Shown one piece after another: positions 29,310-29,401 of a stretch of DNA of 64,000 bases. Position 1 is the stretch's first letter. Every line of letters begins with the position of its first letter. The notes beneath the pieces are model-generated. The model was not told the origin of the DNA, ran no database searches, and was given only the letters and a program-made list of their open reading frames with translations. This DNA comes from Escherichia coli. Lineage in GTDB: Bacteria; Pseudomonadota; Gammaproteobacteria; Enterobacterales; Enterobacteriaceae. The DNA lies in NCBI RefSeq assembly GCF_044324785.1, contig NZ_CP172127.1; one strand, written 5' to 3'. The position numbers and the translations under genes are program-made.

Positions 29310-29324
29310 AACGCCCCCTTAGAA

Positions 29325-29340
29325 CTGTATAAAACAACAG
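29325..29340. promoter_or_regulatory. LexA (SOS) box overlapping the putative promoter of the ejection-protein-like operon
   Basis: CTGTATAAAACAACAG = CTGT-N8-ACAG; a TATAAT -10 hexamer lies on the minus strand at 29343-29348 just upstream. Confidence 0.5.
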
Positions 29341-29401
29341 TTATTATAGTTTCACAAATCGCAATATTCATCATAGCAATTGCAAAATATGAAACAAATA
29401 G

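What the first reader, a model, noticed from the sequence alone, without database searches (positions are those of the whole stretch)
29310..29350. SOS (LexA) box overlapping the promoter of the ejection-protein-like operon
CTGTATAAAACAACAG (CTGT-N8-ACAG, AT-rich spacer) lies between a TATAAT -10 hexamer and the start of the small RHH-like gene on the minus strand. This predicts DNA-damage-inducible expression of the block, as for colicin and some prophage cargo loci, and would couple it to the same signal that induces helper prophages.
Basis: partly seen in the sequence, partly recalled or inferred. Interest (0 to 1): 0.5.

Follow-up and report, generated by a model that had tools for sequence, protein, structure and literature searches.

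The report
SOS box on a satellite's ejection-protein operon
A well-formed, evolutionarily conserved binding site for the DNA-damage repressor LexA sits on the start point of the promoter that drives a P22-type DNA-ejection-protein operon carried by a phage-satellite island in E. coli, so the operon is most likely switched on by the same SOS signal that wakes helper prophages.

Summary
AACTGTATAAAACAACAGTT lies at 29323-29342 (core CTGT-N8-ACAG, 29325-29340). It starts 2 nt downstream of a perfect TATAAT and ends 13 nt upstream of the ATG of a 53-aa gene. That gene heads a tightly packed gp14-gp7-gp20-gp16-like operon on the minus strand.

- **Score:** a home-made LexA matrix gives heterology index 6.4 (20.8 bits), in the range of recA, sulA and lexA sites. 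Random 64-kb sequences give 0.003 such sites.
- **Control:** the only better site in the window is the canonical dinD SOS box.
- **Conservation:** the element is a roughly 20-kb P4/PICI-like satellite island between dinD and yicC. About 500 of 5,426 E. coli genomes carry this promoter. Across E. coli, Serratia and Citrobacter-type relatives, CTGT and TATACAGT stay invariant while the spacer and flanks change. One lineage has the LexA-tolerated CCAG.
- **Limits:** relatives carrying non-P22 injection cassettes keep the promoter but lack the right half-site. LexA control is therefore lineage-specific.
- **RHH label:** not supported by any homology test.

Nothing was tested experimentally. The closest precedent is LexA control of SaPI operon I. 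Verdict: a credible new SOS-regulated promoter, of moderate interest.

The parts
29323..29342 (.). LexA (SOS) box, 20-mer AACTGTATAAAACAACAGTT; core CTGT-N8-ACAG at 29325-29340
   Evidence: HI 6.36, 20.8 bits; 0.003 expected per 64 kb; CTGT and TATACAGT invariant in 13 diverged promoters.
29343..29348 (-). -10 hexamer TATAAT
   Evidence: Invariant in alignment A2; TATAAT or TAAAAT in all related loci.
29366..29371 (-). -35-like hexamer ATGAAT (3/6 match), 17-nt spacer
   Evidence: The nTGAnn register is kept in most relatives but is weak, and the site was not called by the scanner. Inferred.
29314..29320 (-). Shine-Dalgarno AAGGGGG, 4 nt before the ATG
   Evidence: A G-rich SD is present at the same place in all relatives.
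29148..29309 (-). 53-aa leader gene of the cassette; conserved VKPVL...GVAP...HEIARGL; function unknown
   Evidence: 25 invariant residues. No Pfam, PHROG, PADLOC or PDB match. AF2 predicts two helices.
28670..29131 (-). P22 gp14-like (DUF2824) gene
   Evidence: phrog_651, E 3e-66; annotated as DUF2824 in near-identical E. coli records.
27999..28676 (-). P22 gp7-like ejection protein gene
   Evidence: phrog_598, E 1e-69; PF25688 P22_gp7 in relatives.
26578..27999 (-). P22 gp20-like ejection protein gene
   Evidence: phrog_917, E 2e-111; PF16928 Inj_translocase in relatives.
24473..26578 (-). P22 gp16-like ejection protein (DNA transfer protein, transglycosylase region)
   Evidence: phrog_770, E 4e-161, and phrog_29864.
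29402..29446 (-). Strong intrinsic terminator that insulates the operon from the upstream primase operon
   Evidence: Folding energy -26.2 kcal/mol, z -7.6. The hairpin and T-run are conserved in A2.
29756..29870 (.). Iteron-type replication origin: 3x GTTGGTTCA and 3x TGAACCAAC around an AT-rich core, directly after the primase gene
   Evidence: The origin function is inferred from the architecture.
29894..32653 (-). Satellite primase/helicase (TOPRIM + DUF927)
   Evidence: phrog_1139, E 2e-178; annotation.
23840..24454 (+). Weakly SieA-like gene convergent with the gp16-like gene
   Evidence: phrog_7745, E 4e-4. Weak.

Best explanation
The palindrome is a genuine LexA operator on the transcription start region of a sigma-70 promoter. 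That promoter drives a five-gene operon (29309 down to 24473): a 53-aa leader gene followed by gp14-, gp7-, gp20- and gp16-like genes. The operon belongs to a roughly 20-kb P4/PICI-like satellite island.

In undamaged cells a LexA dimer on the box blocks RNA polymerase. After DNA damage, RecA-stimulated LexA self-cleavage frees the promoter. The satellite's own ejection proteins are then made in the same cells, and at the same time, as SOS-inducible P22-like helper prophages enter lytic growth and build procapsids.

**Shown:** sequence, score, position, conservation, operon structure and gene identities.

**Inferred:** LexA occupancy, repression, SOS induction, and what the proteins then do.
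For: **The site itself**
- The 20-mer scores HI 6.36 / 20.8 bits. Known E. coli operators score 2.1-15.8 in leave-one-out tests with the same matrix. The HI limit quoted for LexA-repressed genes is below 15 (PMC11002266).
- Chance expectation is 0.003 sites per 64 kb.
- The matrix recovers the dinD operator as the top hit in the window.

**Position**
- The box starts 2 nt after the -10, so it covers the expected +1.
- It ends 13 nt before the ATG. This matches the short-distance, start-site-overlapping class reported for tightly LexA-controlled genes (PMC8072944).
- A strong terminator lies just upstream, so the operon depends on this promoter.
- Downstream genes overlap or are at most 16 nt apart.

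**Conservation**
- In 13 diverged promoters the longest invariant run is TATACAGT (8 columns). CTGT is also invariant. The five spacer columns and both flanks vary, and only 41% of columns are invariant overall.
- Three different spacers occur in E. coli, Serratia and Citrobacter-type loci.
- A fourth lineage has CCAG, the alternative that real LexA sites use.
- All 24 related loci with an intact box carry P22-type cargo wherever cargo could be read.

**Other points**
- About 498 of 5,426 E. coli genomes carry the promoter, and the spot-checked variants keep the box.
- The putative DNA-reading N-terminal residues of the 53-aa protein are invariant in lineages with and without the dyad. This argues that the dyad is not that protein's operator.
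- Other strong LexA boxes occur elsewhere in sister islands (confirmed in the all-loci rescan).
Against: - There are no binding or expression data.
- The -35 is weak (3/6) and poorly conserved, so the promoter may need an activator or may be weak.
- The left half CTGTAT is also conserved in the 37 loci that lack a LexA box. Part of the conservation therefore has another cause, such as the initial transcribed region or another factor.
- Citrobacter-type versions score only HI 9-14.
- One locus with P22-type cargo (L030) lacks the box.
- SOS induction would express the operon even without a helper, and would not express it when a helper arrives by infection.
- The scoring matrix was built from sites recalled from the literature, not from the published Lewis matrix.
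Confidence: 0.7

Rival explanations
1. The dyad is primarily the operator of another dimeric regulator and only resembles a LexA site. Candidates are the 53-aa leader protein acting as an autorepressor, another island factor, or a helper-phage factor.
For: - The leader gene is always first in the cassette. It has a small strand/helix/helix-like layout typical of autoregulators.
- CTGTAT after the -10 is conserved even in lineages without the right half-site.
- Other conserved motifs (TTTCAT, TTGCAAT, ATTGCG) show that additional factors probably bind this promoter.
Against: - The protein's N-terminal VKPVL segment is invariant whether or not the dyad exists.
- There is no homology to any DNA-binding family.
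- A 20.8-bit match to the LexA matrix, with CCAG as the only half-site variant seen, is not expected for an unrelated operator.
- A site of this quality should be occupied by cellular LexA in any case.
Confidence: 0.12
2. LexA binds, but this is of little consequence. On this view the operon is mainly expressed by read-through or activation from the island's early (AlpA/primase) operon after helper-dependent induction, as in Gram-negative PICIs.
For: - alpA-driven, SOS-independent induction is documented for E. coli PICIs (PMC6092414).
- The -35 is weak.
- Sister lineages do without the box.
Against: - A -26 kcal/mol terminator separates the operon from the primase gene, and it is conserved.
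- The -10 is a perfect, invariant TATAAT.
- The right half-site is under visible constraint in four lineages.
Confidence: 0.12
3. The palindrome is a chance or structural feature, such as a 5'-UTR hairpin, with no repressor role.
For: The 20-mer can form a 6-bp hairpin.
Against: - The hairpin is weak (-7.6 kcal/mol, z -1.3; 25 of 200 shuffles fold as well). It would lose its left arm if transcription starts about 7 nt after the -10.
- Chance is excluded.
Confidence: 0.04

Closest known systems
LexA control of SaPI operon I, the packaging/interference module of Staphylococcus aureus pathogenicity islands (Ubeda et al. 2007, as summarised in PMC5052747)
   Same: In both cases a phage satellite puts the module that acts on helper virion assembly under the host SOS repressor. 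Expression therefore coincides with SOS induction of helper prophages. In both, the module lies downstream of the replication origin.
   Different: The host is Gram-negative and the LexA motif is the E. coli type. The cargo is DNA-ejection proteins rather than small terminase and capsid-size genes. No experimental evidence exists here. Published Gram-negative PICIs were reported as SOS-independent at alpA (PMC6092414).
Canonical E. coli SOS operators overlapping the -10/+1 region, such as dinD, sulA, umuDC and the colicin promoters
   Same: It shares the 20-bp dyad TACTG(TA)5CAGTA consensus (PMC6590174), placement directly after the -10, and a mid-range heterology index.
   Different: It is a single box, whereas colicins have two. 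It sits on an accessory satellite island found in about 9% of E. coli genomes, with a weak -35.
LexA-controlled prophage cargo and antirepressor genes: coliphage 186 tum, and Gifsy/Fels-2 antirepressors and dinI homologues (Lemire et al. 2011, cited in PMC8072944)
   Same: A mobile element wires one promoter directly to LexA instead of relying on a cleavable phage repressor.
   Different: Those genes trigger prophage induction. Here the regulated genes are virion-internal proteins and are not obviously regulatory.
P22 late-operon genes 14-7-20-16 and the adjacent sieA gene
   Same: The gene order 14-7-20-16 is the same, as is the convergent sieA-like gene. The proteins are homologous over their full length.
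   Different: In phages these genes sit inside the long late operon with no promoter of their own. The first 189 nt of the satellite unit (promoter plus leader gene) match no phage record. No sequenced phage covers 80% or more of the cassette.

Membership tests
E. coli-type LexA operator (SOS box) | 16-bp core CTGT-N8-ACAG (CTG-N10-CAG) with an A/T-rich spacer | tested here: met
   CTGTATAAAACAACAG at 29325-29340; spacer 7/8 A/T.
E. coli-type LexA operator (SOS box) | Heterology index within the range of validated sites (below about 15) | tested here: met
   HI 6.36 with a 28-site symmetrised matrix. Known sites score 2.1-15.8 in leave-one-out tests. The threshold is quoted in PMC11002266. The matrix is my own and not the published Lewis matrix.
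E. coli-type LexA operator (SOS box) | Overlaps the promoter core or transcription start of the regulated gene | tested here: met
   The box starts 2 nt after an invariant TATAAT and ends 13 nt before the ATG. The transcription start itself has not been mapped.
E. coli-type LexA operator (SOS box) | Half-sites conserved in orthologous promoters while the spacer drifts | tested here: met
   CTGT and TATACAGT are invariant, three spacers occur, and there is one CCAG variant. This is not met in sister lineages with non-P22 cargo, which lack the right half-site.
E. coli-type LexA operator (SOS box) | LexA binding in vitro or in vivo, and lexA/recA-dependent induction by DNA damage | not testable with these tools
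   No experimental data were found in the paper library.
Ribbon-helix-helix (Arc/MetJ/CopG) repressor, for the 53-aa protein | Sequence or profile similarity to an RHH family | tested here: not met
   No Pfam hit even at E<=10 and no PHROG hit. The PDB profile search found nothing relevant. hhalign probability is below 1% against both CopG and Arc.
Ribbon-helix-helix (Arc/MetJ/CopG) repressor, for the 53-aa protein | Fold consisting of an N-terminal strand followed by two helices | tested here: inconclusive
Phage satellite (P4-like / PICI-like island) | Integrase, AlpA-type regulator, own primase-helicase and origin; no capsid, tail or large-terminase genes | tested here: met
   Annotation of near-identical records; PHROG hits; iterons; C4/isrK-type RNA. 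Relatives appear as 15-30 kb IMG/VR contigs.
Phage satellite (P4-like / PICI-like island) | Helper-dependent excision, replication and packaging | not testable with these tools
   No experimental description of this island type was found.
Phage satellite (P4-like / PICI-like island) | P4-specific sid/psu/delta capsid-size and transactivation genes | not tested
   None was seen among the PHROG hits obtained, but not every small ORF was searched.

The most novel reading that the evidence does not exclude
A widespread family of enterobacterial P4/PICI-like satellites carries exchangeable 'DNA-injection' cassettes behind one conserved leader gene and promoter. The cassettes include P22-type gp20+gp16 with or without gp14/gp7, T7-type internal proteins, SLT/internal-virion proteins, and baseplate-hub or tape-measure-like proteins.

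In the P22-type lineage the promoter has acquired a LexA operator. The satellite therefore loads its own ejection proteins into helper procapsids exactly when SOS induces the helper.

Published work (PMC10461980) shows three things. gp16 and gp20 must be a matched pair. Foreign sets assemble into P22 virions. The set present decides sensitivity to SieA exclusion. The satellite set could therefore let satellite-carrying particles inject into SieA-expressing helper lysogens, which are the very cells a satellite needs to reach.
Probability: 0.25. Interest if true: 0.75.

Novelty: new member of a known kind. Interest (0 to 1): 0.48.

Why it matters
- **SOS regulon.** The site would add a satellite-borne virion-protein operon to the E. 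coli SOS regulon. It would also be the first Gram-negative counterpart of LexA-controlled SaPI operon I, whereas Gram-negative PICIs have so far been described as SOS-independent.
- **Natural comparison.** The promoter exists with and without the right half-site, and this tracks the type of injection cassette. That makes a clean experiment possible on how satellites time their gene expression to different helpers.
- **Unstudied strategy.** The finding points to satellites that bring their own DNA-ejection proteins, which appears not to have been studied.
- **Transfer between strains.** About 9% of complete E. coli genomes carry the promoter. Any SOS-inducing antibiotic could therefore alter the composition of particles that move these islands between strains.

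Tried and rejected
1. **Wrong genomic context.** I first took the context from the best 1.4-kb BLAST hit (L001, thrW island). This was wrong for the window: there is no tRNA, and the window is collinear with strain cq9 between dinD and yicC. My 'ykgJ/yagU' reading of the 18978 site was dropped; it is the dinD box.
2. **Expected dinB control.** I expected a dinB box as a control on the basis of that wrong context. dinB is not in the window.
4. **A second island LexA site at 37379-37398, upstream of the AlpA-like gene (HI 8.45).** It is not conserved in the 98%-identical cq9 island, where the half-site spacing differs. I rejected it as a LexA box.
5. **5'-UTR hairpin.** It is weak and not significant.
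6. **'One-base deletion' idea for the box-less promoters.** Alignment shows a 6-7-nt difference that removes the right half-site. Inserting one A would nevertheless create an HI 3.3 box.
7. **The genome-contig scan.** It returned only 3 loci. The viral-contig scan was far more productive.
8. **Literature searches.** Searches for satellites with ejection proteins, or for LexA control in P4-like elements, found nothing specific.
9. **Published table of LexA sites.** I looked in the library papers for sequences to build the matrix from and found none in the texts searched. The matrix therefore rests on sites recalled from Lewis 1994 and Fernandez de Henestrosa 2000. One of them (dinD) was verified in cq9.

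Full report
**1. What is in the sequence**

On the plus strand, 29325-29340 reads CTGTATAAAACAACAG. With its flanks the dyad is AACTGTATAAAACAACAGTT (29323-29342).

Read on the minus strand, the region runs in this order:
- a strong hairpin terminator with a T-run (29446-29402; -26.2 kcal/mol, z -7.6);
- an A/T-rich stretch;
- ATGAAT (29371-29366);
- a 17-nt spacer;
- TATAAT (29348-29343);
- AA;
- the dyad;
- CTAAGGGGGCGTT;
- the ATG (29309) of a 53-codon ORF.

That ORF is followed, after 16 nt or with overlapping stop and start codons, by ORFs of 153, 225, 473 and 701 codons. PHROGs identifies these as homologues of P22 gp14 (E 3e-66), gp7 (1e-69), gp20 (2e-111) and gp16 (4e-161). A weakly SieA-like gene lies convergent to the last one.

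**2. Is it more than chance?**

The bare pattern CTGT-N8-ACAG occurs three times in the window against 0.6 expected, which proves little.

I built a 20-position matrix from 28 E. coli LexA sites, symmetrised. The sites were recalled from Lewis et al. 1994 and Fernandez de Henestrosa et al. 2000, so this is my own knowledge and not the published matrix. I computed a Berg-von Hippel heterology index (HI) from it.
- The candidate scores HI 6.36 (20.8 bits). This is between the leave-one-out values of sulA/recA (5.9) and yebG/lexA (6.8-7.8) and well inside the 2.1-15.8 range of known sites.
- The literature uses HI below about 15 as the limit for LexA-repressed genes (PMC11002266).
- In 300 first-order Markov randomisations of the window, sites with HI <= 6.4 occurred 0.003 times per 64 kb. 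An A/T-rich background gave 0.007.
- The only better site in the window is 18978-18997. It lies just upstream of a truncated dinD gene.
- The collinear strain cq9 has, at that place, exactly the classical dinD operator AACTGTATATAAATACAGTT next to an annotated dinD. The matrix thus recovers a textbook SOS gene as an internal positive control.

**3. Genomic context**

My first context assignment, from the best short BLAST hit (a thrW island), was wrong for this window. ARAGORN finds no tRNA. The window is collinear with E. coli cq9: gmk-ligB-yicG-dinD | island | yicC-rph-pyrE...waa.

The roughly 20-kb island encodes:
- an integrase next to yicC;
- an AlpA-type HTH;
- AntA/B and Ash-family proteins;
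- a C4/isrK-type RNA (Rfam);
- a TOPRIM-DUF927 primase;
- an iteron-type origin directly after the primase (3x GTTGGTTCA facing 3x TGAACCAAC).

After the origin come the terminator, the promoter and the ejection cassette, followed by accessory genes: PerC, a CapP-like ImmA/IrrE protease and an IS3 element. There are no capsid, tail or large-terminase genes. This is the gene set of a P4/PICI-like phage satellite.

The promoter-plus-leader unit is present in about 498-500 of 5,426 complete E. coli genomes. It matches no phage record. Phage similarity starts only at the gp14 gene, and no phage covers 80% or more of the cassette.

**4. Comparative evidence**

Homologues of the 53-aa protein were found in E. 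coli, Escherichia sp., Citrobacter, Serratia, Klebsiella, Raoultella, Cedecea and IMG/VR contigs. This gave about 60 loci. In every one, the gene is preceded by the same promoter skeleton and followed by genes for virion proteins that breach the envelope or conduct DNA. Two promoter forms exist.

*Type A* (24 loci with the window) has TATAAT-nn-CTGT-N8-(A/C)CAG.
- In an alignment of 13 diverged type-A promoters only 41% of columns are invariant. Yet TATAAT, CTGT and an 8-column run TATACAGT are invariant, while the five spacer columns, the two bases before CTGT and the sequence after the dyad all vary.
- The spacers are TGTTTTAT (E. coli), GTCTATAT (Serratia) and ATCGTTAT (Citrobacter type).
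- A further lineage has ...TATCCAGTG. The A-to-C change falls at the one half-site position where real LexA sites use A or C (36 versus 17 counts in the matrix).
- HI values are 6.4-14.
- Spot-checked E. coli variants with 94-95% identity keep the box. In UPEC129 an ISL3/ClbS insertion has destroyed the promoter.

*Type B* (37 loci) is collinear up to CTGTATAAATAT, then runs straight into CAGGAGG.
- It is 6-7 nt shorter and lacks the right half-site, so CTG and CAG are 9 rather than 10 nt apart. HI is 14-22.
- L065 has type-A length but point changes in both half-sites (TTGT...AGAG, HI 16.3).

Cargo correlates with promoter type. Every type-A locus whose cargo could be read has P22-type genes, either all four or only gp20+gp16. 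Only one of the 37 box-less loci (L030) does. The others carry a transglycosylase/tape-measure-like protein, a baseplate-hub-like protein, SLT plus internal-virion proteins, or T7 gp14-like proteins. These counts are not phylogenetically independent.

**5. Weighing the readings**

The evidence for LexA is strong for a computational case. It rests on score, position on the expected +1, insulation by an upstream terminator, and half-site conservation with LexA-compatible variation in four lineages.

Against over-interpretation:
- The left half CTGTAT is conserved in type B too. Part of the constraint must therefore come from something else, such as the initial transcribed sequence or another factor.
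- The -35 is weak and drifts. The scanner did not call the promoter.
- Other conserved motifs (TTTCAT, TTGCAAT, ATTGCG) indicate further, unknown inputs.

Could the dyad be the operator of the 53-aa protein?
- That protein's N-terminal VKPVL segment and 25 residues in all are invariant across type-A and type-B lineages. If it binds DNA, its site should therefore be common to both.
- The 'RHH-like' label has no support beyond a compatible layout of an unstructured N-terminus and two helices.
- A 5'-UTR hairpin is weak (z -1.3). It would be cut by a start about 7 nt after the -10.

**6. Mechanism proposed**

*Shown:* a LexA-quality dyad on the core promoter of a compact, terminator-insulated five-gene operon of a satellite island.

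*Inferred:* LexA represses the operon, and RecA-mediated LexA cleavage derepresses it. The satellite's gp14, gp7, gp20 and gp16 are then made when SOS also induces P22-like helper prophages, whose procapsids incorporate ejection proteins during assembly.

The nearest precedent is SaPI operon I, the satellite module acting on helper assembly, which is LexA-controlled (Ubeda 2007 via PMC5052747). For E. coli PICIs, alpA induction was reported to be helper-dependent and SOS-independent (PMC6092414). A LexA-wired late module in a Gram-negative satellite would therefore be new.

A further, speculative step draws on the P22 SieA study (PMC10461980). That study found that gp16 and gp20 must be a matched pair, that foreign sets assemble into P22 virions, and that the set decides sensitivity to SieA exclusion. 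The minimal satellite cassette is exactly gp20+gp16. Satellite-encoded ejection proteins might therefore let satellite-carrying particles enter SieA-expressing helper lysogens.

**7. Other LexA-like sites**

- 37379-37398, upstream of the AlpA-like gene (HI 8.45), is not conserved in cq9, where the spacing differs. It is probably another factor's palindrome.
- 27030-27049 (HI 9.0) lies inside the gp20-like gene and recurs in related islands as coding sequence. Its significance is unknown.
- Sister islands carry strong boxes at the integrase/DUF6387 junction (L002, HI 4.7; L004, HI 5.0; L005, HI 6.2). L002 also has a tandem pair before a 346-aa gene (the stronger box reappears). SOS wiring thus recurs in this island family.

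**8. Verdict**

As a LexA operator it is a new member of a well-known kind. The biology around it, satellites with swappable injection cassettes and lineage-specific SOS control, is the more interesting lead. I put confidence in functional LexA repression at 0.7 and interest at about 0.5.

Noticed in passing
window 18978-18997 and 18680-18934 (-): This is the canonical dinD SOS box, with one substitution relative to K-12 and cq9 (HI 3.9). It precedes a dinD gene truncated to an 85-codon ORF. The island is inserted between dinD and yicC.
   Followed up: yes
window 37379-37398: AGCTGTATAGATATACAATG (palindrome TGTATA-GA-TATACA) lies about 55 nt upstream of the AlpA-like HTH gene (37126-37323, -). 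It is LexA-like (HI 8.45). It is not conserved in the 98%-identical cq9 island, where the arm spacing differs. It is probably the operator of another regulator.
   Followed up: partly
window 27030-27049: A LexA-like 20-mer, CCCTGTATGCAAATCCAGCA (HI 9.0), lies inside the gp20-like gene. It recurs in L001, L013, L016, L018, L019, L023, L028 and L059. Four sites with HI <= 9 occur in the window against 0.05 expected.
   Followed up: partly
window 35072-35159 (-) and 35222-35299 (-): There are Rfam hits above the gathering threshold to C4 antisense RNA (79.5 bits) and isrK (67.1 bits). They lie inside the region annotated as an 'ash family protein' gene. This suggests P1/P4-type RNA-based immunity in the island.
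   Followed up: no
window 29756-29870: Three GTTGGTTCA iterons face three TGAACCAAC iterons across an A/T-rich core, directly downstream of the primase gene. This is probably the satellite's replication origin. A 15-nt palindrome pair (TACGAAAATTTCGTA / TACGAAAGTCTCGTA) lies at 29633-29704.
   Followed up: partly
window 29349-29400 and related loci L002-L065: The motifs TTTCAT, TTGCAAT and ATTGC(G/A), partly palindromic, are conserved upstream of and within the promoter spacer in both promoter types. They are candidate sites for an unknown regulator, possibly the 53-aa protein.
   Followed up: no
loci L002, L006-L009, L014, L015, L030-L058, L065: Sister islands keep the leader gene and promoter but carry other envelope-breaching or DNA-injection cassettes. 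These include phrog_7694 transglycosylase/tape-measure-like, a baseplate-hub-like protein, SLT plus internal virion proteins, T7 gp14-like, and sometimes a small-terminase-like gene. Their promoters lack the right LexA half-site.
   Followed up: partly
L002 2346-2365 and 8906-8947; L004 686-705; L005 694-713: Strong LexA boxes (HI 4.7-6.2) lie at the integrase 3' end / DUF6387 gene junction. L002 also has a tandem pair upstream of a 346-aa hypothetical gene. SOS boxes therefore recur at different places in this island family.
   Followed up: no
window 20691-21560 (-) and 21642-22915 (-): A CapP-like ImmA/IrrE metallopeptidase (PADLOC capP, E 5e-25) sits with a small upstream partner gene. This may be a second DNA-damage-responsive switch in the island's accessory region. 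Next to it is an IS3-family transposase that is absent from strain cq9.
   Followed up: no
window ~42546-43517 (+) and 50436-50474 (+): A reverse-transcriptase-family gene lies between pyrE and slmA (annotated as such in cq9). A JUMPstart element precedes the waa (rfaQ) operon, which is ordinary.
   Followed up: no
L061 (E. coli UPEC129) 1380-1560: In this strain an ISL3 element and a ClbS/DfsB gene replace the promoter and the left half of the box. What remains is ...CTGTTTTATACAG fused to foreign DNA. It is a natural promoter knockout of the cassette.
   Followed up: partly
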